Positions 13,806 to 46,836 are shown, counted from the stretch's first letter. The stretch is DNA of 64,000 nt from an uncultured Pseudomonadales bacterium (GCA_964611345.1 CAZSYU010000004.1:17620-81619); one strand, 5' to 3'. Notes: generated from the letters alone by a model not told the origin. Numbers and translations are program-made.

Positions 13806-13815
13806 TCAGTCTGCT

Positions 13816-14748: not shown

Positions 14749-14802
14749 TGTGTTCGCTGTTCTCTCTTTCTATCTATCTATACATCTATTTGGTTTGGCT
14801 AG

Positions 14803-17712: not shown

Positions 17713-17733
17713 GCGAGCAAATTCAATTGGCGA

Positions 17734-19623: not shown

Positions 19624-19692
19624 TTAAGCATTTGCAAGGCAACTCAGGCAGCGGCTTACAAGGGTTAGACCCAGGTCACGAAACCATGCAGA

Positions 19693-20907: not shown

Positions 20908-20927
20908 CTGACTGTGTTAACTCTATT

Positions 20928-22241: not shown

Positions 22242-22276
22242 CCATCCAAAGCATCACAAGAACCTACAAGAGAGCT

Positions 22277-23953: not shown

Positions 23954-23963
23954 GTTATTAGAT

Positions 23964-24862: not shown

Positions 24863-24889
24863 ACCCTTCTCCCCTATGGTGACCTGAAC

Positions 24890-25261: not shown

Positions 25262-25288
25262 GCGCGCCGCCTTGGTTGAGCCCGGAGC

Positions 25289-26314: not shown

Positions 26315-26326
26315 AACAGAAGGGAT

Positions 26327-29179: not shown

Positions 29180-30235
29180 CTAGAATGACCCGTTCAGATA
29201 GAACCAACCTGCTCCCGCTGCGGCAACAACCACCACAGCAATCAAGACCCAGCGCATAGCACCGCCACTGGACCCACTACCTGCCTTTCCTGACTTCGCC
29301 TTCCTTGCTTTATTCTTACCAGCTGCAGCAGCACTACCTGGCAGCAGCAAGAGGGCCTTGGTACCACCAAATTCGATTACATCTTTGGAATTTAGGAAGC
29401 GTTTCAGCACCGCTTCACCATTCACGCGTGTTTTATTTGTCGACATCTGGTCATGTACCGACCACTTCGCGCCGCGACGCACCAATTTAGCGTGAAAATC
29501 AGAAACGCTTGGGTCTTCCAACACGATAGACAGCTCATGCTTGGAGCCATTTTTGCCGATGTTCCAGAAATTTAGGTCGCCTTCGCTCTTGAGCGATATA
29601 GGTTGACCATCACCAGAATCTCCAAGTAATACGAGGGTTGGGTCGGTGAACTGCGCCGCGAGAGCATCCGCATCGATGGCAAACTGATCGTTGGCTTCAC
29701 CGGGTTTCAGGATGATTGTGCCGGGGCTATCGTTCTGCCAGGAGCGCGGCAGGTTTTTGTTAACAGCCATCATCATGGTTTGGCCCATGGCTGCATTAGC
29801 GATATCGCTGTCGTCAGGCTGCCCACTAGGAGCTGGCGCCGGTACCGCGGCGCGAACCACCGTTGCGCCTGGATCCATCGACGCCGCATCCACTGCCGGC
29901 GCAGCAGCACCTTCCGAATCTGACAACGTTAATGTGTGGGTGTCGAACCGTATCTCATCACCGCCGACTGCCATAGTGGGTCCGGTCAGACGCTGATGAT
30001 TGATAAAGGTACCATTGGTCGAACCCAAATCAGTTACCAGCACACCTTCCGCCGCGGGCGCTAAGGTTGCGTGATTGCTCGAAACTGTAGAATGCGCTAG
30101 CTGTAGCACTTCGTCGTAGGAGACGCCTTGATGTTCGGCAGACGGCGCCCGCCCAACAATCACTGTGGTATCAAACTCCAATACTGCTGTACCCGCGTCA
30201 TCGCTCAGGGCAAATCGATTACCTGAAAGGCTCAC
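29180..30235 (-). CDS. Tail-anchored protein with two FHA domains
   Basis: FHA1 is canonical (VGRAP ... VSSNHATL ... STNGTFIN). FHA2 is semi-canonical (IGKNG ... VSDFHAKL ... STNKTRVNG). There is a Lys-rich linker and a C-terminal TM (WVLIAVVVVAAAGAGWFYL). GTG start preceded by GGAGA. Confidence 0.8.
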   Translation of the reverse strand: MSLSGNRFALSDDAGTAVLEFDTTVIVGRAPSAEHQGVSYDEVLQLAHSTVSSNHATLAPAAEGVLVTDLGSTNGTFINHQRLTGPTMAVGGDEIRFDTHTLTLSDSEGAAAPAVDAASMDPGATVVRAAVPAPAPSGQPDDSDIANAAMGQTMMMAVNKNLPRSWQNDSPGTIILKPGEANDQFAIDADALAAQFTDPTLVLLGDSGDGQPISLKSEGDLNFWNIGKNGSKHELSIVLEDPSVSDFHAKLVRRGAKWSVHDQMSTNKTRVNGEAVLKRFLNSKDVIEFGGTKALLLLPGSAAAAGKNKARKAKSGKAGSGSSGGAMRWVLIAVVVVAAAGAGWFYLNGSF

Positions 30236-30272
30236 TGTATTTCTCCATTCGTTTCCAATTCATGAATATATG

Positions 30273-31349
30273 TCATAACAGCCAGTAAACGAGCGCCACC
30301 AAAATCGCCAGCGCCAATGATGCAATAAGCAACTCAACATCAAACCCCTTCATACCAGACTTGTCTTTACCCGCAGATGCCTTCATCTGCTCATCGTCAA
30401 CACCTGAGATATCTGCAGCATTACTGCTGGCAATAGGCAGCGCCGCCTTTTTGGGCAGCGCAATCGTTGTCGCCGCAGCCACTCTAGGCGCGGGCGCAAC
30501 ACCTTCGAAGTCATCATTGCCCAACGGTGCGGGTTCAGCAGCGTCGTCATTGAGCCGCTTGTGACCTTGACCCGGCATGCGCTCAAAACGTTCACGCAAC
30601 TGCTCGACGCTAAGTACCGGCTGTAGCACCTCAATATCTTTAATTCGCAGACATACCACGCTAATGTTATCGAGAGCTTCGCCCAACAGAGTTTCTGCAA
30701 TCAGCGCGCCCACTGCGTCGGTAGGCTCAGGATTCGCCAGCAGCAGGTCGCTGATTTGATCATCCCGCATCTCGTCGTGTAAGCCATCGCTACAAAGCAA
30801 GATCATGTCACCGTTGTCGAGATCCAGACTTAACTCGGCGGGCACTGGTTCAGGGTCAGCGATGCCCAGGGCTTGCACAAGTACGTGCTTCTGGGGGTGA
30901 CCAAACGCATCTGCAGGATCCACCACACCAGACTCTAGTAACTGCTCGAGCAGCGAATGATCCCGGGTCAGCCGAATCAGCTGTTGCTTTCGCCACAGGT
31001 AAACACGGCTGTCGCCGCACCACCCGATTTCAGCTTTACTGCCCTTGATCCGCACCACAACAACAGTGCTGCCCATGTTTTCTGCGGAGCGACGCAGGCC
31101 CTCTGCAACAACCGCCGTATGGGCATCGAAAATCATCGCAGGTAACGCCGGTAGCTCAGAGTGGTCCATAACTGCGGCACTTCCTTGCAACAAGGATTGC
31201 TTAACAATCCGCGAGGCCACATCTCCACACGCATGGCCACCCATACCATCTGCCACCAGCCACACACCGGCGTCTTCAACCCAACCCAACGAATCCTCGT
31301 TGTGCTGGTAACGATTTCCCGGGTGCGACTCGGCAGCAAATTCAATCAC
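30273..31349 (-). CDS. Tail-anchored PP2C-family Ser/Thr protein phosphatase
   Basis: Motifs NEDS, VADGMGGHACGDVAS and LLCSDGLHD, with a C-terminal TM (LLIASLALAILVALVYWLL). Start placed at GTG 31349, 11 nt after the upstream stop. The track ORF extends to 31430. Confidence 0.85.
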   Translation of the reverse strand: MIEFAAESHPGNRYQHNEDSLGWVEDAGVWLVADGMGGHACGDVASRIVKQSLLQGSAAVMDHSELPALPAMIFDAHTAVVAEGLRRSAENMGSTVVVVRIKGSKAEIGWCGDSRVYLWRKQQLIRLTRDHSLLEQLLESGVVDPADAFGHPQKHVLVQALGIADPEPVPAELSLDLDNGDMILLCSDGLHDEMRDDQISDLLLANPEPTDAVGALIAETLLGEALDNISVVCLRIKDIEVLQPVLSVEQLRERFERMPGQGHKRLNDDAAEPAPLGNDDFEGVAPAPRVAAATTIALPKKAALPIASSNAADISGVDDEQMKASAGKDKSGMKGFDVELLIASLALAILVALVYWLL

Positions 31350-31359
31350 TAAACAACAC

Positions 31360-32709
31360 TCAAAAACTCCCCTGAACGGCCGCGGCAGCACGTTGGTAGG
31401 CTTTGGGCCGAAAGGTCTCATCATTGCCAAGACCAGAAAAGAGTCGGTCTAGCGAACTTGCGAGCTGGTCTGCCTCGCCGAGATATTCTGTCAACGTAAC
31501 AATGCTGAGCAGACCCTGTTCTGCTGTACCGTAGTCGACCATACGCCGAGACGCTGCCTGGCCAATCAGCCGCTTGCGTAACGCCCGCACCTTGGCGGTG
31601 CTCACATTTTGCACTTGCCACAGCGCTGACAGCTCATCGATGAGGCTTTGCAGTTGTGTGACTGAAGTGCCAAGTGCCCTGGGGTCACCCTGACCTGCAA
31701 CTACCAGTGCATCGATCGCCCGCTTCAATGCAGCTGTTTTATCTGGAGAAAGCTCTTCACTAATTAACTGTAGCGTACGAAAATGATGATCCGCCAGGCG
31801 TAAGCTGCCAGGCTCAACGCCCTGCTGCCGGCGCTCCTGATACCAGCGCAAGTCCTCCGGATCGAGCCCATGATGACAACTCTGACAGTCAAACATCGAA
31901 AACTCTGGGATAAACTTGGCGCCAGTAAAATAGTCACTACCTAACATTTTCAGAAACGCTCGAGATCCTTCCACCTGCCCGGTGAGCCACAACTGCACGC
32001 CCGCAAAGTTGCCCTTACGCTCTTTATAATCATCATCAACCGAAAAGTGCGGCGGCTGATTGGTCGTGAAATTCTCGAGTTCAAAACTCAACCTGGGATG
32101 GCCCGCGCCCATTATGCGGTGTGTGGTGAACTTATCCTGTGTGCCCAGATGACAACTCAAGCACAACTGCGCTCGCGCCGCTGGCTCCTCTGATGGGTAG
32201 AGGCCATTGGCGATATTATCGGCATGGGTATTGCCTGGATCATCATGGGTTTTAATCCAGTTTTCTGAACCGCCGTGGCACGCCTCGCAACCGACTCCAT
32301 CGTTCAGACTGAACTCCGGGCCACGTTTGTCCTGAGGGACATTGTCAGCATGACAATCCAAACAAATATCTGCGGTATGAGCACTGGCTAAGCCAAGTTT
32401 CGTCGCCATCAACTTGGATTCTGGTGACAACAAGGTCTTGTAGGCACGCGAATGGTAGTCCTGCGCTCGCCATATGCGATGCTCATTCAACCATACGGTG
32501 CGGTTGTCCTGACGACTCGATTTGCCGTGACACGCCCCTCCAGCACAGGACGACGCGCCATAGTGAATATTATCGTCAATGGTGGATACGTCAGCCGAGA
32601 CACTCATACCACACATAAGAATGGCACCAGCACAAATCCACAACGCCACATCACGAGCGGCCTGCCACTTGCTTTGGTATCGGTATTGGCACTGGTATCC
32701 ACCCTTCAC
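31360..32709 (-). CDS. Periplasmic multiheme c-type cytochrome (4x CXXCH + 1x CX4CH) with a helical C-terminal domain
   Basis: Signal-peptide-like N-terminus (ALWICAGAILMCGMSVSA). Motifs CAGGACH, CLDCH, CEACH, CLSCH and CQSCH. The GTG start shares 1 nt with the upstream TAG. Confidence 0.8.
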   Translation of the reverse strand: MKGGYQCQYRYQSKWQAARDVALWICAGAILMCGMSVSADVSTIDDNIHYGASSCAGGACHGKSSRQDNRTVWLNEHRIWRAQDYHSRAYKTLLSPESKLMATKLGLASAHTADICLDCHADNVPQDKRGPEFSLNDGVGCEACHGGSENWIKTHDDPGNTHADNIANGLYPSEEPAARAQLCLSCHLGTQDKFTTHRIMGAGHPRLSFELENFTTNQPPHFSVDDDYKERKGNFAGVQLWLTGQVEGSRAFLKMLGSDYFTGAKFIPEFSMFDCQSCHHGLDPEDLRWYQERRQQGVEPGSLRLADHHFRTLQLISEELSPDKTAALKRAIDALVVAGQGDPRALGTSVTQLQSLIDELSALWQVQNVSTAKVRALRKRLIGQAASRRMVDYGTAEQGLLSIVTLTEYLGEADQLASSLDRLFSGLGNDETFRPKAYQRAAAAVQGSF

Positions 32710-35700
32710 TATCTGGAACCCCCAGCACTAGTTGCGGTTGGCGTGGGTGCTTGTTCTGCGATAGCTTCATTACTGTCACCACCGCCAGCGCTACGCCCAC
32801 GTACGGCTGTACCAGTGCCTTCTGTATCCTGCACAAACCAGGGCTCGCCCGATTCATTGAGGTACAGCTTGTTCATGTCTTCACGGGAGAGTGGTCGAGA
32901 ACCACGGCGCCCAAACACCGCAATCTGTCCACCGGTTTCGTCTACACCCCGATCCCGATCAAGCCCTTTTGATAGTGCCAGTGCTGGCCGCTTGGTGGGA
33001 TAACTCGCGATTAGTTTGGGGTTTGGCTCGGGGCTAAAGCCATAGAAGTTCGGCTGCAGGGAGGGCGACGTCAACTGCACAACTTTCAACCCACCCGCGC
33101 CATCGGCAACGTAGGCAAATAGCGAAGCATTGGTGCTCGCTACGACAACATCATGTGCGTCGACAATCTTGCCACCATCGTTGTAGGTCTGGAGCAGGCG
33201 CATATTGTCGGGTTGAGTGACATCTACCACTGCGAGACCTTGTGCTCCTGCGGCAACATAGGCATAGGTTCGCGCCACGTACACGCGCTTGGCATCACTC
33301 AACGTAATCGTCGACGCTGATAATTTCGGTGCTTTGTTATTGGTGACATCAACGGTCTGCAATCCGTCTGCCGTCGTTACAAACAAATAGCGGAATTGCA
33401 GCGCCGTCGCTCGAGGGTCGCTCATGGGTATGCGGCTCACCAATTGCGGCTCCAGCGGATTCTGCAAAGACACCACCAATACTTCCGTTGGTAACGTCAG
33501 ATAGGCAATAGACCCCCCCAGTGTGATGTGACGAACACCATTTAGCAGACCGTCTGGGTTCCAGGTGAGTGCCCGGCTGAGGTTATTGTTGCGCAGCTCG
33601 CCGTCTTGCAGTGTATTAACGTCAACCAGAATCAAACCTTCTTGGGCATCTGTGATCACCGCGTAGTTGTAAATTGGATGGAAGGGCTGCTCCTGATTGG
33701 TGATACGCATCAGATCGCCTTCGTTCTTAAACGGTGCAATAGGTTGCGTAGACGGCAGCGCCATGCAGGTAGCGTTCTTCGACTTCACCTGTGTACCCTG
33801 ACCGAGCGGACTGAACGGCGTTGTCACAATGCGCTGCGAAAAGCCCTTGTTCGCAACGTTGGCAATGTCATAAACGCGCATTCCGTTTTTACCTTCGGCA
33901 ACGTACAAGTACTCGCCGCGCATTTGTAGACAGTTTGCAGGACCCGAACGATGCCCATACGCATGCTTCAGTACCCCGCCACGCGCTTCATGCTGCGCAA
34001 AGAAATCAGGGTAGGCGTACTTTTGCAGGTAACTGCCAATCACCGCCTGGGGCTCTTCCCACTCGGTTACTTGCACCGCAGAGACCTCGCCATCACCACC
34101 AACCCAGGCGTTATAGCCAACGAAGTTAACGAAGTTGGTTCCGAACATAAGTAGCTGGGCCATAATCGCGTTGTTATCGTTCTGTTCCGACAGATGACAA
34201 TCGCTGCAATTCTTGGTCTCTGATAATCGCACAGTGTGCGGGAAGTGAGGATTGAAGGCCTGCGAACTGAAACCTGAAGCGGCAACCGGTGGTTGCTGAA
34301 TATAGATTTTCTCACGGTTAGCATTTGTCGATGACAGTACCAACGCCGAGGTAGAGCGCACTGGCGCTATCTTGCCACCCTTGGCCGGACCCCTTCGTCC
34401 AAGCAGAAACATCTGATCCCGGGCAACCTGGGGGTTATAGCTGGCAAAGTTTCGACTCTTGCCCCCTTCATAGTGGTGTCGTTCGGTTTTCTTGTTCGCC
34501 TCAATGGGCAAGTGACAACCACCGCAGCTCGTTGTCCAGGACGTATGACAGGTGTAGCACTCCATTTCATCATAGGAATGGGCCAGATCAACACTGGCAA
34601 CCTGATTACCCCACTCCTGTGTTTCGGTGTTGTTAGACATGGTTTTGGCGCGCGCTGCCTTCGAGTTGTAATCCGAGTGTTTCGGATCGACCGCGTTCTT
34701 TACCAGACTGACTTTCCACTCAAGATTTTCATCGAGTGCTGAGCGCTGGTAGAGATCCCCGTTCACCCACTCGAAGCGAGGCCGCCCACCAGGCACCCGA
34801 AGCGACAGAAAATCTGTTCCGCCACCAATCGCAGCTGGTCCGGAGGCGTAGAGATTGGGCAGCTCTTTTGAGGTGCCGTGGCAGTCTTTGCAATCAACCT
34901 CAACAGCAAGTGCTACTTCTCCCTGAATGTGGCCGTTGCCGTGGTTGTCCTGGGCAAAGTGGCAATCAACACAGTGCATCCCCACATCCAGGTGAATCGA
35001 CGACATATGTACCGCCTTGTCGAATTTCTTGGGATCGTCGTTTTCAACCACGTTGTTCTTCGCATCGAGCAGATTACCCGTGCGATCACGTTTGAATACG
35101 GCTCGAAAGTTCCAGCCATGACCGTGATAGTCGGCGAACTGGGTATCATTTAATTCCGGATTCAGCTCAGATACTGCCTCCAGAAAATCCGTGTCCGCCC
35201 ATTTGCCACGGGGCGCTGCTCCTTCCGGATTGCGCTCCAACACTTCATGAATCTCTTCGCTGGTCGGATATTGTTGCTGCTCCGGCCACATCGCAGGCGC
35301 GTCCGATTCGTAGTCCCACATGGTGTAGCCCAGGTAACTGTTCACAAACATGTTCGGCTGGTGCATATGACAAATCATGCATTGTGATGTGGGTATCGCA
35401 TTGGTAAAGCTGTGCTTGATGGGATGCCCTGATTCGTTTTTTGGAATGGTCGGATCAAGCGTTGCGGTTTTACCAGTGTGGCCATGCTGGGCGTAACCGC
35501 CTGAATGTCGCGGATCACGGTCGTTGGCATACACAACGTGACAGGATGCGCAGCCAGAATTGCGATAATCACCCGGTTGATCGTTAGTGCCCATAAACCA
35601 GGTAAAAGGGTCATTCAGACGTGTTTTAGTGATATTGATTACGGGGACAGAAATGCGCGCACCCGTTGCCGGGCCACGGTTTGATTGACGAATATCAGGT

Positions 35701-36638: not shown

Positions 36639-36649
36639 CCCTGAGCTCC

Positions 36650-40822: not shown

Positions 40823-42663
40823 TCCTTTCCACCTCCTGAGTCACCACCGGCGACTCTCCCCGCGTTGGTCGCCCACTGTTGCGCGCTTGCTTGCCCACCT
40901 AGTAAGGGTGCTCCATCAAAGCCCGCAAAGTTCCGCGGGTGATACGCGTGACAATCTATGCACGCCAATGCCACCTGAGATACACTATCGCGATCGCCAT
41001 GGCACTCATAACAGGTGGCCATCGTTGGCATAAGCAGATCGGTCGCACTGGCAGAATTCTTGGCGGCGTGACAGGTATCGCAGGCCTGATCACCCACCAA
41101 CAGCTCGCTACTTTCGCCATCACGCAACACCTGATGAGCGATATGATCGAATCGCGCATCGGGCACAAAATCCTGTGGCAGCTTCACTGGATGCACCCAG
41201 AACTGGTCTTCGATATCCTTCGAATCCTGGCGTTCAAACTGATGACACGCAGCACAGCCGATATCACCGGCAAACTGAGCTTCGACGATCTCTTTTAGTT
41301 CACGCTCCACACAGACGTCTGGCGCGTCAGTACAACCGGCCACTCGATCCGGACGATCTGGCAAACGGCGATAGGCAAACAGCTCACCCGTGTCATCAGG
41401 ATCGAAGTATTTTTTCAGTAACATGCCTTCAAGCGCCAACACCGCTTCTTTTAAACGCGCATGTGGCAAGCTCCGATCAGGGTCGGACTCATCAAAATCA
41501 AGTTGGTGACAATCCTGGCAATGCGCTTCCATGCTGACTGGCAAGAAATGTTCGCCGTCGATGCTCATGCTGTGGCAGGTTCCGCAAGTGAGAGCTTCAC
41601 CGGTTACTAAATCTGACACTTCGCCAACATCCAGATGAATATCGTGAGGAAACACAAGTTCCGAAGTTTCTGGCGAATTCGCTATCTCAGTTTCGCTGAC
41701 CGCTTCGATCCGCCATCCATCATCTTTCGATCCGGCAAACTCCTCGAGCGTGAAGCGCGGTAGCGAGTATTCGTAAACCGGATGGGTTTCTGGAGTGAAG
41801 CCCGTCACTGCTGCTAACGGATCTATATCGCGATGAATGCCACCACCAGAGTCAGTGCCTGCTGCGTGGCATTGCACACAGTCACCATCGGCGTCGCGAA
41901 CTAAAGTGCTCGGCTCGTTGTGCTCCCGATGACAGACGCCACAACGCTCATTTGCATTGGCACCGAAGTCGAGCCCGCCAGACCCAAGTTCGCCAGGCAC
42001 GGAGGTCGCGGCTAAAAACGCGCTGCTGACATGATCTTGAATTGAACCGTGGCACGCCTCACAAGCCTCGTTTTGAACACGTTCGAAGGGTTTGCCGTGA
42101 CAACCGGCACAATTTTCGCCCGTGACCAACTCATGCGCGGCATGCAGCTCACCAGACGTCCATACATGATCTGAAAAGAGCCCACTAACCGGCGCCTGGG
42201 TGGCGCGTTCGCCGGAAAACAGAAAGGGCACAATAAACATACCCAGTAACACAACCAGTGCACCAATCCATGCGAACGCACGTTTCGCTAAAAACGTATC
42301 AGCCAAGCTGAGTTTTTGTGTTGACAACACCGAAACATGATCTGCTGCACGACGCACTATCAACATGCCGTCAAAACCACCCGGCGCTTCTTCTACATGC
42401 ACGCTAGCACCAGGTAGCTCTATGAGATCGCCGGATCGCAAAACACAGCGCTTAACCACATTGCCGTTAACCTGCACACCATCACGAGTGGTGCTGCGCA
42501 AGACTAGCCCTTCTCGTCCCAGCTCAATACTCGCGTGGCGCAGTTCAAGCAGCGGTAGTTGCAGGTGCGCATCGTTAGCAGACCCGAGAATAACGCGATC
42601 AATCCCGTGTTCTTGGTCTATGTGGCCGCCTGCTTCCCTGGCGATGCGTATCAAGAGGTCCAT
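40819..42663 (-). CDS. FHA-like domain / single TM / periplasmic decaheme c-type cytochrome fusion protein
   Basis: The N-terminal ~100 aa are FHA-like (RVILGS...LRHASIEL...TRDGVQVNGNVV...GDLIELPG). One TM (AFAWIGALVVLLGMFIVPFLF). Then ten CXXCH motifs (CAGCH, CEACH, CGVCH, CVQCH, CGTCH, CQDCH, CAACH, CDTCH, CYECH, CIDCH). ATG 42663 lies 4 nt after the upstream TAA. The track ORF starts at 42693. Confidence 0.8.
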   Translation of the reverse strand: MDLLIRIAREAGGHIDQEHGIDRVILGSANDAHLQLPLLELRHASIELGREGLVLRSTTRDGVQVNGNVVKRCVLRSGDLIELPGASVHVEEAPGGFDGMLIVRRAADHVSVLSTQKLSLADTFLAKRAFAWIGALVVLLGMFIVPFLFSGERATQAPVSGLFSDHVWTSGELHAAHELVTGENCAGCHGKPFERVQNEACEACHGSIQDHVSSAFLAATSVPGELGSGGLDFGANANERCGVCHREHNEPSTLVRDADGDCVQCHAAGTDSGGGIHRDIDPLAAVTGFTPETHPVYEYSLPRFTLEEFAGSKDDGWRIEAVSETEIANSPETSELVFPHDIHLDVGEVSDLVTGEALTCGTCHSMSIDGEHFLPVSMEAHCQDCHQLDFDESDPDRSLPHARLKEAVLALEGMLLKKYFDPDDTGELFAYRRLPDRPDRVAGCTDAPDVCVERELKEIVEAQFAGDIGCAACHQFERQDSKDIEDQFWVHPVKLPQDFVPDARFDHIAHQVLRDGESSELLVGDQACDTCHAAKNSASATDLLMPTMATCYECHGDRDSVSQVALACIDCHAYHPRNFAGFDGAPLLGGQASAQQWATNAGRVAGGDSGGGKE

Positions 42664-42667
42664 AGGC

Positions 42668-43543
42668 TTACCAGTACCAAAACACGACGACAATATGGAT
42701 AACGAGAGCGAACAAAACAGCTATGGAAAGCGGCACATGAATATACAACCAGGCCTGCAACAAGCCCTGCATTTGCACATCCCGACGCACGCGCCGCAAC
42801 AAATCCTGACGGCGCGCAGTGAGGGACATCAGATGGCGCAACGCTGTTGTTTCTTTTCCATCGCTCGCTTGCGTTGCAGCCTCCGATAGAAAGCGCAACA
42901 GATTACGTTGATCAAAATTGCTGCGGTGCTGATTGCCTTCAGAGCTGGCTTCCTGGAACGTAGATCGATCGCTGCCCAGCAGCTGCCGGAGAAAACCACC
43001 TCCGACTCGGGTTTGGTCCAAGGCCGAGCGCACTGTATTGTTTATATCGTCAGAGCAATCCGCCGCTCGCTCGAGGCTCGCCAGCTCAAGACTTTCCAAC
43101 TCTTCAATATTCTCTGCTCGACTGCGCGTTTTACGCACCGACGATAATCGTCGCGGCAGCGAGAGGTAGACAAACATGCCAAACACGCCGCTGGCGATCA
43201 CCGCCATCATTAACCAGAAGAACAGCGAATGAATGTTCCAGCCGAGTTGCCCAGCGCTATGGAACAGGCTTACCCCGATGAGTGCAGTACCCAGATAAAC
43301 GTGCGCACTTACCCAACCTTTTAGCGACCCACCTCGCCCATAGCGGCGCTTGCGCACTCCCAGATAGTTCAACCAAAAGATGAGCAATCCAGCAATGATG
43401 CCAAGCGTCAGTCCTTGCCAGGTACCGCCACTAGGTGGAGTCGTTGCGTCTTGCAGCCAATACAGTCCAAAGCTGATCGCAAGCAATCCAAGCGCTACCC
43501 ACAGATACCGACCGCCTGCATGTTGCAACGCGTTCTGACTCAT
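42668..43543 (-). CDS. Five-TM inner-membrane protein with two His pairs (candidate di-heme b electron carrier)
   Basis: Four N-terminal TMs, a ~130-aa hydrophilic loop and a C-terminal TM. His81/His95 lie on TM3 and His269/His283 on TM5, each pair spaced i/i+14. The ATG overlaps the upstream TGA (ATGA). Confidence 0.55.
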   Translation of the reverse strand: MSQNALQHAGGRYLWVALGLLAISFGLYWLQDATTPPSGGTWQGLTLGIIAGLLIFWLNYLGVRKRRYGRGGSLKGWVSAHVYLGTALIGVSLFHSAGQLGWNIHSLFFWLMMAVIASGVFGMFVYLSLPRRLSSVRKTRSRAENIEELESLELASLERAADCSDDINNTVRSALDQTRVGGGFLRQLLGSDRSTFQEASSEGNQHRSNFDQRNLLRFLSEAATQASDGKETTALRHLMSLTARRQDLLRRVRRDVQMQGLLQAWLYIHVPLSIAVLFALVIHIVVVFWYW

Positions 43544-46086
43544 AGCGCGTCTCGCTCAATAATGCGCACAAAGTCTTTTGGACTGACGCGTTGCGCCGCG
43601 CCGGTCGGACAAGCGGATACACAGGCAGGACCACCGGTAACATCAAAGCAGGCATCACACTTCTTGGCCTTTTTCACCTGCCCTTCGGGTCCCTTCGCAG
43701 CTTTATCTTCGCCAGGACCAGACCCCATGCCAAACAACAGCCAGCTGAACAAACCCGGCTTCGCCGGCGCCTCAGGCGCCATCCGAATCACATCGTACGG
43801 GCAGTTACTCTGGCAGTTGCCGCAGCCAATACAGGAATCATCGATAAACACTTCGCCATCACTCGCCCGGTGAATGGCATTAGGGGGGCAATCCTTCATG
43901 CAGTGCGGTTGCTGACAGTGACGACACGATATGGGTATATGAACGTGGGCCATCGTACTGCCTGATTTCCGGTCGAGCCGCGAAATACCGTCGTGTGTTT
44001 CAGCACACGCGGTCTCACAGTTATCGCAACCGACGCAGAGATATTCATCGATAATGAGAGCGTTAGTGGCCTCTCCCAAACCGTCGCCCAACATAAATTC
44101 CAAAACCTGAGAAGACTCACGACGAGTTTCCCACTGCGAGTACTTCATCAAATCGCGACTCGCCCGCGCATCGACAATATCTTCCTGCTCCATATCGAAC
44201 ATCATCAAGCGTCGATACTGTTCCTCAGTGATCTCCAGCGTTTCAGTTAACACCGACGCCTCAGCAACATTGGTTCGTGCGTTCTGGTTGTACATGGCCA
44301 TAAAACCGACCATTTCTCCGGCCCGTTCTTCGGCGATCAGATTTCGCTGTTCATCAATTTCGTTGAATATCAACACGGTGCCGGAGCGAATGAGATGCAG
44401 ACTGTTACTGTCATCCCCAGGTTCCCACAAGCGTTGACCCGCTTTAAAACTATGCTGCTGAATCTCATCCGCAATGGGGCGCAGCTCCTCAACCGTCGCC
44501 GCCGGAGCAAAGTGGCGCTGCAACTCGCGCACAATGAACACCCAGTCAATGCCTTCGCGCACCGCATCATTGGAGGCGATGAGTTTCAAAATGGTTCGGC
44601 GTGGTGTTTCGAGAACAATGCAGTTGTCGCCCGCCATGGCTGTCTCGGGTCTGGGCTGGCCAGCAATAAGACTCATTTCCCCGAAGAACTCACCCCGCCC
44701 AAGGCGTCGTTCACCACCAGCAAAACTCGACGACCCAAGCACCACTTCGCCGTCGAGTACCGTATAAAACGACACACCAAAGTCACCTTCGGTATAAAAC
44801 TCATGTCCTTTTGGAATAACTTTGGTCACACTGGGCTGGGCCTTTGAATACGCCTCATCGCCAGAAATTTTTCGTTCCACGTCCACAAGCGACAGCTCCG
44901 CGTCCTCGATGCTGTCTTCGTCAGGCAGCCCGACATACAGCGAGCTTTCAATCACCATCTCGCGAAATGCCAGCACACTAAGCTGACGAAACATCGGAAT
45001 CCGTGACATGAACAGACTAATGAGTTCGTCGGCATCCCGATCATAGGGCAGGCCAGCAAACTGAAACTCAATCAGCTCATGATCTGCCGGTTTGACGAAA
45101 TTGCCATTCGCAAACTCGACAACATCATAGCCCTGGTTCATCGCCTGCTTGATGAGTGGGCACCCTGCCAACGCACCGACCACATAAAGGCCTGGCACAC
45201 TACTTTCGTAGTGTTCGCTCAATACCGGCAACGCATCAGCGCCAGCGTGGCTCATCGTCATGCCGCAGCCTTCGAGAAAACCACGGGGGGGAATAGAACC
45301 AAGCCGGGCAATAATGCGATCGGCCTCAATCAACTCTTCGCCTTCTGCGGTGGCGATGGTCACCTTCAGGTCCGGACCTGTACCGTCACCCGCAACGATG
45401 CTGTCGATTGAGGCGGAATACAAACACCCCAGGCTAACGTCATCATTGTTCGCGGCTGCGAGAATGGCGTTTAGGTTACCTTCTTTAGCGCGGGCAAATT
45501 CCGCCTTGCGATTTAGAATGTACACCTGGTTTTGCTCAGACAGCGCCAACGCATTTTCAATCGCGGAATCGCCAGCCCCAACCACAATTATGGTCTCGTT
45601 GCTGTATTCGCCTGGATCGTCCAGCTGATACTGAATATTCGGCAGCTCTTCGCCAGTTACTCCCAAGCGGCGAGGGTTACCCTGGGTGCCGATCCCGAGC
45701 ACAACGTTTGCCGCTGTTACCGTCTGACCATTGGCAAGCTTTATCTCAAAACCGCCGCGCTCACCCTGAATACCAGTAACTTCGGCGCCGTATTGCACAT
45801 GCAGTGCTTGATCTTCGGCCGCGGTGTCCCAAATACCTAGAATTTCTTCGCGCTTGCCGGCATCAAATCCCACATCACTACGCAAACGCAAATAGCCCGG
45901 CTCGGCCATAACGTGCTTGCCTTTCTGATACCGATAGATGGTCTTGGAGAGATGATCGAAGCCTTCAAGCAGCACATAGCTGGGAGTGGTCGCGCCACTT
46001 TGCTTGTCACGCGCTGCTGCGCGCGCTGCTGCCGACAACCCCGCTGGTCCAGAACCAACGATAGCTAACTGATATTGCACTTCCAT
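43540..46086 (-). CDS. Fusion protein: FAD/NAD(P)-binding pyridine nucleotide-disulfide oxidoreductase + two cyclic-nucleotide-binding domains + 4Fe-4S ferredoxin domain
   Basis: Two Rossmann motifs (LAIVGSGPAGLSAA and IIVVGAGDSAIENA). cNMP phosphate-binding cassettes FFGEMSLIAGQPRPETAMA and AGEMVGF...ARTNVAEA. Four Cys-cluster motifs (CVGCDNCETAC, CRHCQQPHCMKDCP, CIGCGNCQSNCP, CDAC...CVSACP). No signal peptide. ATG 46086 is preceded by GGGGAGA. The track ORF starts at TTG 46092. Confidence 0.85.
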   Translation of the reverse strand: MEVQYQLAIVGSGPAGLSAAARAAARDKQSGATTPSYVLLEGFDHLSKTIYRYQKGKHVMAEPGYLRLRSDVGFDAGKREEILGIWDTAAEDQALHVQYGAEVTGIQGERGGFEIKLANGQTVTAANVVLGIGTQGNPRRLGVTGEELPNIQYQLDDPGEYSNETIIVVGAGDSAIENALALSEQNQVYILNRKAEFARAKEGNLNAILAAANNDDVSLGCLYSASIDSIVAGDGTGPDLKVTIATAEGEELIEADRIIARLGSIPPRGFLEGCGMTMSHAGADALPVLSEHYESSVPGLYVVGALAGCPLIKQAMNQGYDVVEFANGNFVKPADHELIEFQFAGLPYDRDADELISLFMSRIPMFRQLSVLAFREMVIESSLYVGLPDEDSIEDAELSLVDVERKISGDEAYSKAQPSVTKVIPKGHEFYTEGDFGVSFYTVLDGEVVLGSSSFAGGERRLGRGEFFGEMSLIAGQPRPETAMAGDNCIVLETPRRTILKLIASNDAVREGIDWVFIVRELQRHFAPAATVEELRPIADEIQQHSFKAGQRLWEPGDDSNSLHLIRSGTVLIFNEIDEQRNLIAEERAGEMVGFMAMYNQNARTNVAEASVLTETLEITEEQYRRLMMFDMEQEDIVDARASRDLMKYSQWETRRESSQVLEFMLGDGLGEATNALIIDEYLCVGCDNCETACAETHDGISRLDRKSGSTMAHVHIPISCRHCQQPHCMKDCPPNAIHRASDGEVFIDDSCIGCGNCQSNCPYDVIRMAPEAPAKPGLFSWLLFGMGSGPGEDKAAKGPEGQVKKAKKCDACFDVTGGPACVSACPTGAAQRVSPKDFVRIIERDAL

Positions 46087-46092
46087 GGCCAA

Positions 46093-46212
46093 TCTCCCCA
46101 GATCAACGCTTAGTGTTGTCCGTAACCTACATTCATGACAACCTTTTTATTCTCGATTTCGATAACCTATTCTTGCCGCAGTTTGACTACTGCCATTACG
46201 CAGGTTTTGACC
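46093..46212. promoter_or_regulatory. Divergent control region between the cytochrome operon (-) and the TM-FHA gene (+)
   Basis: 120-nt AT-richer spacer. It carries a direct repeat of TAACCTA at 46123-46129 and 46163-46169 (40-bp period). No promoter boxes were assigned. Confidence 0.35.
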
Positions 46213-46836
46213 ATGGCTTTTTTCGACGAACTTAAACGCCGTAAAGTGTTTCGTGTCACCAGCCTCTACGCTGTGACTGCGTGGGGAGCATCCATGGGTG
46301 CGGCCGAACTCTTCCCCACCTTTGGCCTGCCCGATGAATCGGTGCGCTGGTTCGTTGTGGGTGCCTTCGGCTTGCTGCCAGTTGTCGCATTGCTTGCCTG
46401 GCTTTACGAACTGACACCCGGGGGTATCGAACGTGACGCCGCCGATTGTCCCGACACTACCACGCACCTGGCACCCCAGCGCGCCGCCAACGAGTTGACT
46501 GCGAGCTGGCGCGACAAAAACTGGACCTTTCAGAACACCTTCACCATCGGCCGCGATATCACCTGTGACTTGCATATCGACGATCCGAAAATATCGCGTC
46601 GCCATGCTCGGGTAGTCGCTCAACATCAGCATTGGTACCTCGAAGACCTGGGCAGCAGCAATGGCACCAGCGTCAACGGCGAACTCATTACGCGAACCAG
46701 TCTCTCGGGCTCGGCCAAAGTTACGCTTTACGAGGGCGGCGACGAGATCACCTTGAGCATCAAAGTTCCGGGTGGCGTCGCCACTGTGCTCGCAGACCCC
46801 CCTCCGAACAATGCGATCACCCAACGTGATACCTAA
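46213..46836 (+). CDS. Membrane-anchored FHA-domain protein
   Basis: N-terminus MAFFDELKRRKVFRV, then two TMs, then a canonical FHA domain (TIGRD ... ISRRHARV ... GSSNGTSVNG). Start at ATG 46213. The track ORF starts at 46135. Confidence 0.8.
   Translation: MAFFDELKRRKVFRVTSLYAVTAWGASMGAAELFPTFGLPDESVRWFVVGAFGLLPVVALLAWLYELTPGGIERDAADCPDTTTHLAPQRAANELTASWRDKNWTFQNTFTIGRDITCDLHIDDPKISRRHARVVAQHQHWYLEDLGSSNGTSVNGELITRTSLSGSAKVTLYEGGDEITLSIKVPGGVATVLADPPPNNAITQRDT

What the first reader, a model, noticed from the sequence alone, without database searches (positions are those of the whole stretch)
29180..46836. Nine-gene coupled operon wiring a cytoplasmic flavo-FeS protein, a His-pair membrane protein, three multiheme cytochromes and an OM barrel, under Ser/Thr-phospho/FHA control: candidate regulated trans-envelope electron conduit
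SEEN: the minus-strand genes from 46086 to 29180 are overlapping or nearly contiguous.
- ATGA overlaps at 43540-43543 and 40819-40822.
- A 4-nt gap at 42664-42667.
- TAG directly followed by ATG at 38629/38630.
- A 1-nt overlap at 32709.
- 11-nt gaps before 36638 and 31349.
- A 37-nt gap before 30235.

Products in order: FAD/NAD(P) + 2 cNMP + 4 Fe-S motifs without a signal peptide; a 5-TM protein with two His pairs; FHA-like-TM-10xCXXCH; a tandem GlcG/HbpS lipoprotein; a 659-aa signal-peptide protein ending in Phe; 10xCXXCH + propeller; 4xCXXCH + CX4CH; PP2C; 2xFHA. That totals 24 CXXCH plus one CX4CH in three proteins. A canonical FHA gene is divergent at 46213.

ESTABLISHED: porin-cytochrome conduits (MtrCAB, PioAB/MtoAB, Geobacter Pcc) combine a periplasmic multiheme protein, an OM barrel and a surface multiheme protein. 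Hanks kinase/PP2C/FHA modules gate membrane machines, for example PpkA/PppA/Fha1 for the T6SS.

INFERENCE: electrons could run NAD(P)H > FAD > Fe-S > b-hemes > c-hemes > barrel-associated surface cytochrome (or in reverse). Flux or assembly would be controlled by cNMP and threonine phosphorylation. I do not recognise this combination as a described system and cannot verify its novelty without searches.
Basis: partly seen in the sequence, partly recalled or inferred. Interest (0 to 1): 0.92.

Follow-up and report, generated by a model that had tools for sequence, protein, structure and literature searches.

The report
NAD(P)H-fed multihaem envelope electron chain
This is a real, widely conserved but uncharacterised gene cluster that appears to wire cytoplasmic NAD(P)H through iron-sulfur clusters, two membrane haems and 25 c-type haems to an outer-membrane channel complex, under cyclic-nucleotide and threonine-phosphate control; its final electron acceptor is unknown.

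Summary
Nine tightly coupled minus-strand genes (29180-46086), their domain content and the 24 CXXCH + 1 CX4CH count were all reproduced.

- **Conservation:** the first six genes (A-F) are colinear in 58 of 59 complete loci from other genomes. Relatives of E were confirmed in at least 570 matching stretches of a one-genome-per-species collection.
- **Spread:** recognisable versions occur in Alpha- and Gammaproteobacteria, Myxococcales, Verrucomicrobiia, Acidobacteria, Wallbacteria and Xenobia.
- **Accessory parts:** the PP2C/2xFHA pair is present in 30 of 53 loci with enough flank. FHA domains are nevertheless built into the core: the N-terminus of C, and an FHA-FNR fusion in Acidobacteria.
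- **Outer-membrane protein:** E models as an 18-strand AlgE/OprD-like barrel, not a 26-strand MtrB-type sheath.
- **Location hint:** one F homolog carries a peptidoglycan-binding OmpA domain, which points to the periplasm.

My reading is a quinone-independent NAD(P)H-driven electron-export chain that ends at a periplasmic, outer-membrane-associated decahaem-propeller protein, with its own channel and lipoprotein. A true trans-outer-membrane conduit is the main rival.

No paper in the searched library describes this cluster. The nearest is the 'ptd' operon, named in a preprint first posted in 2023, whose function is also unknown.

The parts
43540..46086 (-). A: cytoplasmic flavo-Fe-S protein (848 aa from ATG 46086; the ORF extends to TTG 46092). 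It joins a TrxR-type FAD/NAD(P) domain, two cNMP-binding domains and a HycB-like four-cluster ferredoxin.
   Evidence: - Pfam Pyr_redox_3 at 2.5e-28, cNMP_binding at 9e-29 (two stretches), Fer4_11/Fer4_7.
- PDB sequence hits: TrxR-type FNR/YpdA for the N-terminus, PKA-R for the middle, and HycB (7z0s_B, 4e-17) for the C-terminus.
- All 16 cluster cysteines are 98% conserved, and there is no conserved CXXC in the flavin domain.
- No signal peptide or TM helix.
42668..43543 (-). B: 291-aa, five-helix inner-membrane protein, inferred to carry two transmembrane b-haems, with a roughly 130-aa cytoplasmic insert.
   Evidence: - His81/His95 on helix 3 and His269/His283 on helix 5 are each 14 residues apart. 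These four and His105 are 100% conserved in 63 sequences.
- Only a sub-threshold Pfam Ni_hydr_CYTB hit (14.6 bits).
- No similarity to E. coli MsrQ, YodB or HyaC by hhalign.
- ATGA overlap with A.
40819..42663 (-). C: 614-aa protein with a cytoplasmic FHA-like domain, one TM helix and a periplasmic decahaem domain.
   Evidence: - 10 CXXCH motifs plus 10 further His, all invariant, which fits bis-His ligation.
- The N-terminal 130 aa hit Pfam FHA at 25 bits, E 2.6e-5, and the Ki-67 FHA domain in the PDB.
- TM helix at residues 134-164.
- The canonical Arg after the conserved Gly is absent here and in several of the 18 orthologs read, but present (GR) in five of them, mostly alphaproteobacterial; conserved columns are listed.
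38630..40822 (-). D: 730-aa lipoprotein with tandem HbpS/GlcG-like domains.
   Evidence: - Pfam HbpS-like at 9.5e-23, three stretches.
- Weak PDB hits to EfgA/GlcG and to a putative extracellular haem-binding protein.
- Lipobox VLAQFSG|C, also seen in orthologs.
- PGAP names the Sphingobium ortholog 'heme-binding protein'.
36650..38629 (-). E: 659-aa outer-membrane 18-strand beta-barrel, AlgE/OprD-like, with an N-terminal periplasmic extension.
   Evidence: - AF2 model with 18 strands. Overall pLDDT is 61, and most strand blocks are in the 70s-80s.
- Foldseek top hits are AlgE (E 3e-16, TM-score 0.62 on the target), followed by Occ/OprD porins.
- No Pfam, NCBIfam or PDB sequence hit.
- The C-terminal residue is aromatic in 76 of 76 homologs.
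- More than 6,271 homologs in the protein collection.
32709..36638 (-). F: 1309-aa decahaem protein with a C-terminal roughly eight-bladed LVIVD beta-propeller; proposed terminal redox protein.
   Evidence: - 10 CXXCH motifs conserved in 97-100% of 67 sequences; 65 of 67 homologs carry all ten.
- Pfam LVIVD at 8e-15.
- AF2 gives the propeller a pLDDT of about 90, but the haem domain is below 50. Foldseek returns only generic propellers such as BamB and AztD.
- 59-72% identical across Alpha- and Gammaproteobacteria.
- No lipobox.
- Homolog P0439 carries a C-terminal OmpA domain.
31360..32709 (-). G: 449-aa secreted cytochrome related to c554, with 4 CXXCH + 1 CX4CH; proposed periplasmic relay.
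   Evidence: - Pfam Cytochrome_C554 at 1.7e-9.
- PDB hit to cytochrome c554 (1bvb) at 8e-4.
- The 4 + 1 motif pattern occurs in 53 of 53 homologs.
- Found directly downstream of F in 38 of 53 loci, and elsewhere in the locus (6 more), sometimes divergent upstream of A.
30273..31349 (-). H: PP2C Ser/Thr phosphatase with a C-terminal TM anchor. The start is ambiguous (31349, 31421 or 31430).
   Evidence: - Pfam PP2C at 1.6e-12; NCBIfam Stp1_PP2C at 171 bits, below its 230-bit cut-off.
- TM helix at residues 360-385.
- Present in 30 of 53 loci with enough flank.
29180..30235 (-). I: protein with two FHA domains and a C-terminal TM anchor.
   Evidence: - Pfam FHA at 1.7e-27, two stretches.
- TM helix at residues 322-349.
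- Present in 34 of 53 loci with enough flank.
46213..46836 (+). J: divergent membrane-anchored FHA protein (207 aa from ATG 46213).
   Evidence: - Pfam FHA at 2.4e-18.
- TM helix at residues 69-94 of the long ORF.
- The gene caller also reports 207 aa.
- Its position is not conserved. Most tblastn hits with J in other loci fall on the FHA domains of the I homolog.
52561..54168 (-). Possible partner: a Hanks-type Ser/Thr kinase with one TM helix, loosely linked to the cluster.
   Evidence: - Pfam Pkinase at 6.8e-32.
- Kinase homologs lie within 10 kb of the cluster in 4 other loci, and beside the Acidobacteria version.
26327..27622 (-). Possible partner: a membrane-bound class III nucleotidyl cyclase, a candidate source of the cNMP ligand of A.
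   Evidence: - Pfam Guanylate_cyc at 7e-8.
- A cyclase gene directly follows F in L059.
- Cyclase homologs lie within 10 kb in L050, L051 and L069.

Best explanation
The cluster encodes a quinone-independent chain that carries electrons from the cytoplasm to the outer envelope.

**Proposed path.**
1. A oxidises NAD(P)H at a TrxR-type flavin domain and passes electrons down four [4Fe-4S] clusters.
2. B, a five-helix membrane protein with two bis-His b-haems stacked across the bilayer, carries them through the inner membrane.
3. C, a membrane-anchored decahaem, carries them into the periplasm.
4. G, a five-haem c554-like protein, relays them.
5. F, a decahaem protein with a beta-propeller, receives them. 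F sits under the outer membrane in a tight complex with the 18-strand channel E and the lipoprotein D.

**Terminal step.** I favour the view that F is the terminal reductase for a still unknown oxidant, and that E is its substrate or product channel rather than a cytochrome sheath.

**Why it is regulated.** Exporting electrons spends both reducing power and membrane potential. So flux is gated on the cytoplasmic face in two ways:
- by cyclic-nucleotide binding to A;
- by threonine phosphorylation, read by the FHA-like domain of C and by the membrane-tethered FHA proteins I and J, and reset by the PP2C phosphatase H.

**What is shown and what is inferred.**
- Shown: gene content, motif invariance, the barrel fold and the synteny.
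- Inferred: cofactor loading, direction of flow, all protein contacts, the acceptor and the phospho-targets.
For: **Coupling and conservation.**
- The genes are translationally coupled.
- A-B-C-D-E-F are colinear in 58 of 59 complete loci.
- The Steroidobacter flavus locus has the same nine genes in the same order, with different flanking genes.

**Cofactor sites are invariant.** This covers 16 Fe-S cysteines, five His in B, all 10 + 10 + 5 haem motifs, and ten extra His in C.

**NAD(P)H is the input.**
- A resembles TrxR-type ferredoxin-NADP reductases and lacks a conserved CXXC redox disulfide.
- The flavin module occurs in three forms: fused (this window), as a separate gene (L059), and replaced by a non-homologous FNR-type FAD_binding_6/NAD_binding_1 protein in an Acidobacteria operon (L090). 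Recruiting two different NAD(P)H flavoenzymes to the same system argues that nicotinamide is the donor.

**FHA is part of the machine.**
- C carries an FHA-like domain.
- The Acidobacteria FNR carries an FHA domain and sits next to a 3xFHA protein, with a kinase nearby.

**The system is modular.** Sphingobium separates A-B-C from G-D-E-F on opposite strands.

**E is a channel rather than a sheath.** It has 18 strands and is AlgE/OprD-like.

**D, E and F look like a constrained machine.**
- They are the most conserved parts, at roughly 48-72% identity, against 26-41% for C.
- In my experience outer conduit cytochromes are among the faster-evolving parts, so this is the opposite pattern; it was not measured here.

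**F is probably periplasmic.**
- One F homolog ends in a peptidoglycan-binding OmpA domain.
- F has no lipobox.

**Carriers.** They include organisms known, from general knowledge, as aerobes, such as Sphingobium, Steroidobacter flavus, Parahaliea and Oceanicoccus. This fits a non-respiratory, NAD(P)H-spending role.
Against: - No biochemical or genetic data exist for any member.
- B matches no known b-cytochrome family at the sequence level, so its haem content rests only on the His pattern.
- The haem domain of F could not be modelled (pLDDT below 50), and no catalytic haem was identified.
- The OmpA fusion is a single cluster of homologs.
- LVIVD propellers are usually described on cell-surface proteins, which would fit a surface location for F.
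- 25 c-haems is more than a periplasmic relay strictly needs.
- The cNMP phosphate-binding cassettes of A deviate somewhat from the canonical motif (my reading of the sequence).
- The FHA-like domain of C lacks the canonical Arg in this protein and in several orthologs.
- PP2C and 2xFHA are both absent from 19 of 53 loci.
Confidence: 0.45

Rival explanations
1. One reading: a true trans-outer-membrane porin-cytochrome conduit. F, or part of it, together with D reaches the cell surface through or beside E, and it reduces extracellular insoluble acceptors such as Fe(III), Mn(IV), humics or electrodes. Alternatively it takes electrons from them.
For: - A porin gene is always adjacent to multihaem genes.
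- 25 c-haems give a long wire.
- LVIVD repeats are typical of surface proteins.
- One carrier MAG comes from a biocathode community (L020, 'Biocath_Gamma_022').
- The ptd authors reached the same guess for their related operon.
Against: - E has 18 strands like AlgE/OprD, not the roughly 26 strands of MtrB.
- C and G score only 17-19 bits against the DmsE/MtrA-family model, whose cut-off is 192; F did not hit that model at E <= 0.01.
- F has no lipobox, and one homolog bears a periplasmic OmpA domain.
- No quinol dehydrogenase gene such as CymA or NapC is in the cluster.
- The high conservation of D, E and F is unlike what I would expect of outer conduit cytochromes (expectation from general knowledge).
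- Many carriers are aerobes not known as metal respirers (general knowledge).
Confidence: 0.25
2. An NADPH-oxidase-like generator of reactive oxygen or a soluble reductant. The same outward chain deliberately reduces O2 to superoxide or peroxide, or reduces a diffusible shuttle or Fe(III) chelate for iron uptake, in the periplasm or at the outer membrane.
For: - The logic matches NOX/FRE: NAD(P)H, flavin, then two His-pair haems on helices 3 and 5.
- The Acidobacteria version even uses the same FNR-type FAD_binding_6/NAD_binding_1 module as NOX/FRE.
- Carriers include aerobes from soil and marine sediment.
- Tight regulation is expected for a wasteful or dangerous reaction (inference).
Against: - No sequence similarity of B to the FRD-family member MsrQ.
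- A simple oxidase would not need 25 c-haems, a propeller, a dedicated porin and a lipoprotein.
- No phenotype data exist.
Confidence: 0.12
3. Inward electron flow. A periplasmic or extracellular donor is oxidised at F, and electrons run through G, C and B to A in order to reduce NAD(P)+ or ferredoxin-like acceptors.
For: - TrxR-type FNRs are reversible (established knowledge).
- The related ptd operon occurs in nitrite oxidisers and other lithotrophs.
- G resembles cytochrome c554, an electron acceptor in ammonia oxidation.
Against: - Moving electrons inward against the membrane potential, and uphill to about -320 mV, needs an energy input. No coupling device is visible in B (inference).
- Most carriers are described as heterotrophs (general knowledge).
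Confidence: 0.08
4. The signalling genes are only neighbours. PP2C, 2xFHA, the divergent FHA gene and the distant kinase, caspase/Sel1 and autotransporter genes form a separate module that merely sits beside the redox genes.
For: - Both PP2C and 2xFHA are missing from 19 of 53 loci.
- The kinase is about 6 kb away, behind unrelated genes.
- The position of J is not conserved.
Against: - An FHA-like domain is fused to C itself, and an FHA domain is fused to the FNR-type flavoprotein in Acidobacteria.
- PP2C and 2xFHA follow G in the same orientation in 30 loci from several gammaproteobacterial families.
- H and I are tail-anchored to the membrane, as is C.
Confidence: 0.1

Closest known systems
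ptdABCDEFG operon (Elbon et al., bioRxiv 10.1101/2023.11.21.568154; function unknown)
   Same: - It contains a FAD/NAD(P) oxidoreductase, a cNMP-binding protein with 4Fe-4S clusters, a 'ferric reductase-like' membrane protein, a decahaem protein, a tetrahaem protein and a porin.
- The split flavin / cNMP-FeS arrangement is also seen in relatives of this cluster (L059, L090, L091).
- The tetrahaem, cNMP-FeS, TM protein, decahaem order of ptd matches the Acidobacteria version.
   Different: - The distinctive ptd cytochrome is a pentahaem, placed in the same COG as NrfA, with a beta-sandwich. Here it is a decahaem with an LVIVD propeller.
- ptd has no HbpS-like lipoprotein, PP2C or FHA genes listed.
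- Gene order differs, and the listed host organisms differ.
- Sequence homology could not be tested because the Ptd sequences were not obtainable with these tools.
Porin-cytochrome conduits (MtrCAB, PioAB/MtoAB, Geobacter Pcc)
   Same: - Multihaem c-cytochromes are encoded next to an outer-membrane beta-barrel.
- The presumed task is to move electrons across the envelope.
   Different: - The barrel has 18 strands and is AlgE-like, not about 26 strands.
- None of the cytochromes reaches the cut-off of the MtrA/DmsE-family model, and Pfam MtrC/MtrF-domain hits to C and G are weak: 37.5 bits for C, just above the 30-bit cut-off, and 21 bits for G. F hits neither at E <= 0.01.
- Input comes from an NAD(P)H flavo-Fe-S protein and a dihaem membrane protein, not from a quinol dehydrogenase.
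- Regulatory domains are built into the system.
NOX / FRE / MsrQ-type transmembrane electron exporters (ferric-reductase-domain superfamily)
   Same: - Cytoplasmic NAD(P)H, then flavin, then two haems held by His pairs on two helices spanning the membrane, then an acceptor on the far side.
- His spacing is 14 here, compared with 12-13 in FRD proteins (the FRD figure is from established knowledge).
   Different: - B has five helices, not six, with a 130-aa cytoplasmic insert.
- There is no detectable sequence similarity to MsrQ.
- Four Fe-S clusters are interposed between flavin and haem.
- The acceptor is a 25-haem c-type chain.
Transmembrane redox complexes of sulfate reducers (Hmc, Tmc, Qrc)
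   Same: - They combine a periplasmic multihaem cytochrome, an integral membrane protein and a cytoplasmic or peripheral four-cluster Fe-S protein.
- NCBIfam gives weak sub-threshold hits to TmcA, HmcA, HmcB and DsrO.
   Different: - All scores are far below the family cut-offs.
- Those complexes have no flavin or NAD(P)H module, no cNMP or FHA domains and no outer-membrane part.
Hanks kinase / PP2C / FHA gating of envelope machines (PpkA-PppA-Fha1 of the type VI secretion system)
   Same: - Membrane-proximal FHA proteins, a PP2C phosphatase and a receptor-type Ser/Thr kinase are encoded near a multi-protein envelope machine.
   Different: - The target here would be an electron-transfer chain.
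- FHA domains are fused to redox proteins (C, and the Acidobacteria FNR).
- No phospho-site is known.
AlgE alginate export porin
   Same: - Best structural match to E: an 18-strand barrel.
- UniRef labels the Steroidobacter ortholog 'Alginate export domain-containing'.
   Different: - About 11% identity.
- No Pfam hit at E <= 0.01.
- No alginate biosynthesis genes nearby.
- E has a 140-aa N-terminal extension and a highly conserved loop of roughly 50 residues.

Membership tests
Mtr/Pio-type porin-cytochrome conduit | An outer-membrane barrel large enough (about 26 strands) to enclose a periplasmic decahaem | tested here: not met
   The AF2 model of E has 18 strands. Foldseek best matches are the 18-strand AlgE and OprD/Occ porins.
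Mtr/Pio-type porin-cytochrome conduit | A periplasmic decahaem of the MtrA/DmsE family | tested here: not met
   NCBIfam TIGR03508 decahem_SO scores 17.0 bits for C and 19.4 bits for G, against a cut-off of 192.
Mtr/Pio-type porin-cytochrome conduit | A surface lipoprotein cytochrome of the MtrC/OmcA family | tested here: not met
   F has no lipobox and no Pfam MtrC/MtrF-domain hit at E <= 0.01. C (37.5 bits) and G (21 bits) give only weak hits. The actual location of F is not testable in silico.
Mtr/Pio-type porin-cytochrome conduit | Electron input from the quinol pool through a CymA/NapC-type or similar quinol dehydrogenase | tested here: not met
   No such gene is in the cluster. The input module is an NAD(P)H flavo-Fe-S protein plus a dihaem membrane protein.
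ptd operon | A cNMP-binding Fe-S protein, a membrane protein and a decahaem protein encoded together | tested here: met
   A, B and C have this architecture. Split cNMP/Fer4 genes occur in L059, L090 and L091.
ptd operon | [quoted passage not shown] | tested here: not met
   No such protein is present. The large cytochrome here is a decahaem with an LVIVD propeller.
ptd operon | Sequence homology to the PtdA-G proteins | not testable with these tools
   Only accession numbers are available. The sequences could not be fetched.
FHA domain (PF00498) | A profile match above the gathering score | tested here: met
   I scores 96 bits (two domains), J scores 66.7 bits, and the C N-terminus scores 25.0 bits, against a cut-off of 20.7.
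FHA domain (PF00498) | Canonical phospho-Thr contact residues (Gly-Arg, Ser-x-x-His, Asn-Gly) | tested here: inconclusive
   They are present in J and in the first FHA domain of I, read from the sequence. In C, the Gly is conserved in 63 of 65 sequences and the His in 48 of 65. The Arg is absent in the window and in several of the 18 orthologs read, but present in five of them.
PP2C phosphatase | A profile match and the metal-binding Asp motifs | tested here: met
   Pfam PP2C scores 48 bits against a cut-off of 20.3. DGMGGH and the later Asp motifs are visible in the sequence. The NCBIfam Stp1 equivalog scores 171 bits, below its 230-bit cut-off, so H is not an Stp1 ortholog.
Ferric-reductase-domain / cytochrome b561-type dihaem membrane proteins | Two His pairs on two transmembrane helices, positioned to hold two stacked haems | tested here: met
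   His81/95 and His269/283, each pair 14 residues apart, are invariant in 63 sequences.
Ferric-reductase-domain / cytochrome b561-type dihaem membrane proteins | Sequence or profile similarity to family members | tested here: not met
   Pfam Ni_hydr_CYTB scores 14.6 bits against a cut-off of 30.1. hhalign against E. coli MsrQ, YodB and HyaC gives a probability below 1%.
AlgE / alginate export porin | An 18-strand barrel fold | tested here: met
   Foldseek E 3e-16, TM-score 0.62 on the target.
AlgE / alginate export porin | Sequence-family membership and an alginate biosynthesis gene context | tested here: not met
   No Pfam or NCBIfam hit, and no PDB sequence hit with a profile. The neighbouring genes encode cytochromes.

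The most novel reading that the evidence does not exclude
This is the proteobacterial form of a pan-bacterial, previously unrecognised class of envelope redox machine. It would be a bacterial counterpart of eukaryotic NADPH oxidases and ferric reductases, extended by a 25-haem wire to the outer membrane. It would export cytoplasmic reducing power without using the quinone pool and would be switched by cyclic nucleotides and threonine phosphorylation. It could account for part of the unexplained extracellular reductant or superoxide production, or surface iron reduction, by aerobic heterotrophs in sediments and soils.
Probability: 0.2. Interest if true: 0.95.

Novelty: new variant of a known kind. 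Interest (0 to 1): 0.8.

Why it matters
**How widespread it is.**
- More than 6,000 to 7,000 homologous proteins were found in the metagenome protein collection.
- Versions occur in at least seven phylum-level groups.
- Every annotated member seen is called 'hypothetical' or carries only a generic name.

**What it would mean if the reading is right.**
- Many abundant sediment and soil bacteria would own a regulated route that takes NAD(P)H electrons past the quinone pool to the outer envelope. Carriers include Halieaceae, Woeseiaceae, Steroidobacteraceae, Sphingobium and Acidobacteria.
- This bears on iron and manganese cycling, on extracellular reactive-oxygen budgets and on bioelectrochemistry.
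- It would be, to my knowledge, the first case of Hanks-kinase/FHA/PP2C and cyclic-nucleotide control acting directly on an electron-transfer chain.

**It is testable.** Several carriers are cultured, so genetics and biochemistry are possible now: Steroidobacter flavus, three Parahaliea species, Oceanicoccus sagamiensis, two Kineobactrum species, Pseudoteredinibacter isoporae, Oceanibacterium hippocampi and Sphingobium herbicidovorans.

Tried and rejected
**Structure and sequence searches that gave nothing useful.**
- AF2 on F residues 56-1250, with 34 homologs: the haem domain came out below pLDDT 50 and only the propeller was usable. Foldseek returned generic propellers such as BamB and AztD, so there was no functional lead.
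- Sequence and profile searches of E and F against the PDB found nothing.
- C and G gave only marginal hits, to the Ki-67 FHA domain and to cytochrome c554.
- The B profile against E. coli MsrQ, YodB and HyaC by hhalign showed no similarity. Single-sequence templates limit the power of this test.

**Weak family hits.** NCBIfam hits of F to Geobacter ExtM (63 bits against a cut-off of 800) and of C to TmcA were rejected as local haem-motif similarity.

**Literature.** Eight full-text searches were run.
- The Tenderiales uet cluster is a different gene set.
- The Woeseiaceae paper mentions only mtrCAB.
- Only the ptd preprint is related.
- Ptd sequences could not be obtained. Only accession numbers are in its supplement.

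**Other searches.**
- tblastn against the plasmid collection, run to look for ptd-like variants, found only 12 Sphingobium megaplasmids carrying this same system.
- Promoter and terminator scans were uninformative beyond showing no excess of terminator-like sites.

**False lead.** The ORF at 23964-24500 gave weak multihaem hits. It is a cytoplasmic zinc-ribbon protein, not a cytochrome.

**Rejected idea.** I considered that E is an alginate or polysaccharide exporter. There are no biosynthesis genes nearby, and E is invariably linked to cytochrome genes.

Full report
**1. The observation**

The window is part of a 175-kb metagenome scaffold (ENA ERZ23487673). Pfam scans of its other ORFs gave ordinary housekeeping functions such as LPS-core biosynthesis, GlnE, ThyA and DHFR.

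I read every junction from the sequence:
- ATGA overlaps between A/B and C/D.
- A 4-nt gap between B and C.
- TAG followed directly by ATG between D and E.
- An 11-nt gap with a GGAG between E and F.
- A one-base overlap between F and G.
- A 37-nt gap between H and I.

The only corrections are a 10-nt rather than 11-nt gap before 31349, and an ambiguous PP2C start. Consensus scans show terminator-like sites at the level of shuffled sequence and no minus-strand promoter-like site within the cluster. These scans are not evidence of co-transcription.

Haem-motif counts are exactly as stated: 10 in C, 10 in F, and 4 + CX4CH in G.

Pfam confirms the domain calls:
- A: Pyr_redox_3, two cNMP_binding domains and four-cluster Fer4.
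- D: HbpS-like.
- F: LVIVD.
- G: Cytochrome_C554.
- H: PP2C.
- I: two FHA domains.
- J: one FHA domain.

The N-terminal 130 residues of C, scanned alone, pass the FHA gathering score at 25.0 bits against 20.7.

**2. It is a conserved system, not a strain oddity**

The 659-aa protein E has more than 6,271 homologs in the protein collection, at about 60% identity in Woeseiaceae, Pseudomonadales and Steroidobacter. F has more than 7,654.

I ran tblastn of all window proteins against the 80 best loci:
- All six genes A-F are present in 59 loci and colinear in 58. Most of the rest are truncated contigs; L019 has kinase, caspase-like and autotransporter-like hits lying between C and D.
- G is present in 44 of 53 loci with enough downstream sequence, and directly follows F in 38.
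- PP2C is present in 30 and 2xFHA in 34 of those 53 loci. Neither is present in 19.

Steroidobacter flavus has the identical nine-gene order with unrelated flanking genes.

Cultured carriers include:
- three Parahaliea species;
- Sediminihaliea albiluteola;
- Pseudoteredinibacter isoporae;
- Oceanibacterium hippocampi;
- Oceanicoccus sagamiensis and two Kineobactrum species.

Twelve Sphingobium megaplasmids carry the system as two opposed units, A-B-C and G-D-E-F. This shows it is built from an inner module and an outer module.

**3. Reach beyond Proteobacteria**

The haem domain of F matches 2,661 representative clusters at E <= 1e-3. Distant full-length relatives keep the multihaem-plus-LVIVD build.

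I searched from a 39%-identical Xenobia relative and found family members named by their sources as Xenobia, KSB1, Acidobacteria, Vicinamibacterales and Wallbacteria. Their contexts are as follows:
- **Acidobacteria (L090):** E-like; F; a small multihaem protein; a cNMP/Fer4 protein; B-like; a 759-aa multihaem protein; a 3xFHA protein; and a protein made of FHA + FAD_binding_6 + NAD_binding_1. A Ser/Thr kinase lies nearby.
- **Wallbacteria (L091):** D; E; F; G on the opposite strand; then cNMP/Fer4; B; and a shorter C.
- **Xenobia (L089):** E; F; B-like; a multihaem protein; and a cNMP-binding gene at the contig end.

In a Wenzhouxiangellaceae genome (L059) the flavin domain and the cNMP/Fer4 part of A are separate genes.

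So the NAD(P)H-flavin module is fused, split, or replaced by a non-homologous FNR-type enzyme. I take this as the strongest evidence that nicotinamide nucleotides feed the chain. FHA domains recur fused to redox components in distant phyla.

**4. The parts**

*A.*
- Its N-terminus aligns with TrxR-type ferredoxin-NADP reductases and YpdA.
- Its middle aligns with PKA-regulatory-subunit cNMP domains.
- Its C-terminus aligns with HycB-type four-cluster ferredoxins.
- All 16 cluster cysteines are conserved, and there is no conserved redox-active CXXC. So A looks like a reductase feeding a polyferredoxin, not a disulfide reductase.

*B.*
- It has five hydrophobic helices.
- By the positive-inside rule (my reading), His81 and His269 lie near the cytoplasmic face, and His95 and His283 near the periplasmic face.
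- These four and His105 are invariant in 63 sequences. This is the geometry of a two-haem transmembrane wire.
- B belongs to no recognisable b-cytochrome family.

*C.* It has ten invariant CXXCH motifs and ten further invariant His, which fits all-bis-His haems.

*D.* It is a lipoprotein with HbpS/GlcG-like domains.

*E.*
- It models as an 18-strand barrel. AlgE, then OprD/Occ porins, are the best structural matches.
- It ends in an aromatic residue in all 76 homologs.

*F.*
- It keeps ten haem motifs in 65 of 67 homologs.
- It is 59-72% identical between Alpha- and Gammaproteobacteria, and 36-51% identical in the Wallbacteria, Acidobacteria and Xenobia relatives.

*Conservation pattern.* D (48-63%), E (52-65%) and F are the best conserved proteins of the set, and C (26-41%) the least.

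*Location of F.*
- One F homolog ends in an OmpA peptidoglycan-binding domain.
- F has no lipobox.
- Both points suggest a periplasmic location under the outer membrane.

*H and I.* Both are tail-anchored to the membrane. This places them beside the cytoplasmic FHA-like domain of C.

**5. Mechanism**

I propose an outward, quinone-independent chain:
NAD(P)H > FAD > 4x[4Fe-4S] in A > two b-haems in B > ten haems in C > five in G > ten in F, at a D-E-F outer-membrane complex.

*Direction.* Outward flow is favoured for two reasons. It is downhill, and it is assisted by the membrane potential. Inward flow to NAD(P)+ would need an energy input for which no device is visible (inference).

*Need for regulation.* Electron export dissipates both reducing power and membrane potential, so tight control is expected. 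This gives a rationale for the cNMP domains, the FHA domains, the PP2C, and the recurrent nearby kinases and class III cyclases.

*Terminal step.* I favour F as a periplasmic terminal reductase, with E as its substrate or product channel. Three observations point that way:
- the 18-strand barrel;
- the strong conservation of D, E and F;
- the OmpA fusion.

LVIVD propellers are usually described on surface proteins, the wire is long, and one carrier comes from a biocathode community. A NOX-like role in superoxide or soluble-reductant production is a further outward variant.

**6. Comparison with known systems**

The cluster fails the defining features of Mtr-type porin-cytochrome conduits: barrel size, an MtrA/DmsE-family decahaem, an MtrC-family lipoprotein and quinol input.

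The closest described entity is the ptdABCDEFG operon, named in a preprint first posted in 2023 (version dated February 2024) from oxygen-deficient-zone Alphaproteobacteria.
- Its parts are a pentahaem with a beta-sandwich, a porin, a FAD/NAD(P) oxidoreductase, a tetrahaem, a cNMP protein with 4Fe-4S clusters, a ferric-reductase-like membrane protein and a decahaem.
- Its authors state that its function is completely unknown.
- It shares the input-module architecture with this cluster.
- It has a different distinctive cytochrome, no HbpS-like lipoprotein and no PP2C or FHA genes.
- Sequence homology could not be tested.

In logic, the inner half works like NOX/FRE/MsrQ-type exporters, and the regulation resembles PpkA/PppA/Fha1 gating of the type VI secretion system. 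Membership in either family is not shown.

No paper in the searched library describes the F-family cluster. Database names are 'hypothetical protein', 'LVIVD repeat-containing protein', 'heme-binding protein' and 'multiheme c-type cytochrome'.

**7. Verdict**

- I class it as a new variant of a known kind, namely envelope multihaem electron-transfer systems, with the ptd operon as a partial precedent.
- I score interest at 0.8, because the system is very widespread, is unannotated, sits in organisms not thought to export electrons, joins two signalling systems to an electron wire, and can be tested in cultured strains.

Noticed in passing
window 26327-27622 (-); L059 15490-16653: A membrane-bound class III adenylate/guanylate cyclase lies two genes downstream of the cluster. 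A cyclase gene directly follows F in a Wenzhouxiangellaceae genome, and cyclase homologs lie within 10 kb in L050, L051 and L069. This is a possible source of the ligand for the cNMP domains of A.
   Followed up: partly
window 50491-52437 (-) and 52561-54168 (-): A caspase-like (Peptidase_C14) + Sel1-repeat protein and a Hanks Ser/Thr kinase lie upstream of the cluster. Homologs of the caspase/Sel1 protein flank the cluster in 9 other loci, and kinase homologs in 4. In L019 these hits lie between C and D.
   Followed up: partly
window 46857-50459 (-): A 1200-aa autotransporter with four Calx-beta domains lies between the kinase genes and the cluster. Weak homologs (27-43% identity) lie near the cluster in 7 other loci.
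   Followed up: partly
L059 2675-5091: Protein A is split into a Pyr_redox gene and a cNMP x2/Fer4 gene. This is the same split as PtdC/PtdE of the ptd operon.
   Followed up: yes
L090 19227-22444: In an Acidobacteria version of the system, a 3xFHA protein is followed by a fusion of FHA + FAD_binding_6 + NAD_binding_1. That is an FNR-type NAD(P)H flavoenzyme carrying its own FHA domain.
   Followed up: yes
L086 (Sphingobium herbicidovorans pMSHV) 10526-26815: The system is split into two opposed units, A-B-C and G-D-E-F. A calcineurin-like metallophosphoesterase gene directly follows C. It might be a non-homologous substitute for the PP2C phosphatase.
   Followed up: partly
protein P0439 residues 1225-1297: This F homolog carries a C-terminal OmpA peptidoglycan-binding domain, which hints that the C-terminus of F is periplasmic.
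   Followed up: partly
window 36650-38629 (-), E residues 504-555: One of the most strongly conserved stretches of the barrel protein is a loop of about 50 residues between strands 13 and 14, which AF2 models with low confidence. It may be a lumen plug or a partner or cofactor site. His292 and His435 are invariant.
   Followed up: no
L091 20232-21920: In the Wallbacteria version, an ETF-ubiquinone oxidoreductase gene lies next to the A/B/C-like genes, on the opposite strand.
   Followed up: no
window 25289-26314 (-): hemE (uroporphyrinogen decarboxylase, a haem biosynthesis gene) lies three genes downstream of a cluster that needs at least 27 haems. This is possibly a coincidence.
   Followed up: no
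window 23964-24500 (-): A 178-aa ORF gives weak multihaem Pfam hits, but it is a cytoplasmic zinc-ribbon protein with no signal peptide. The cytochrome hits are false leads.
   Followed up: yes
window 31349-31430: The PP2C start is ambiguous. GTG 31349 gives a 10-nt gap after G. The metagenome gene caller used 31421, which overlaps G by 62 nt. The Steroidobacter ortholog is shorter (276 aa), which favours the downstream start.
   Followed up: partly
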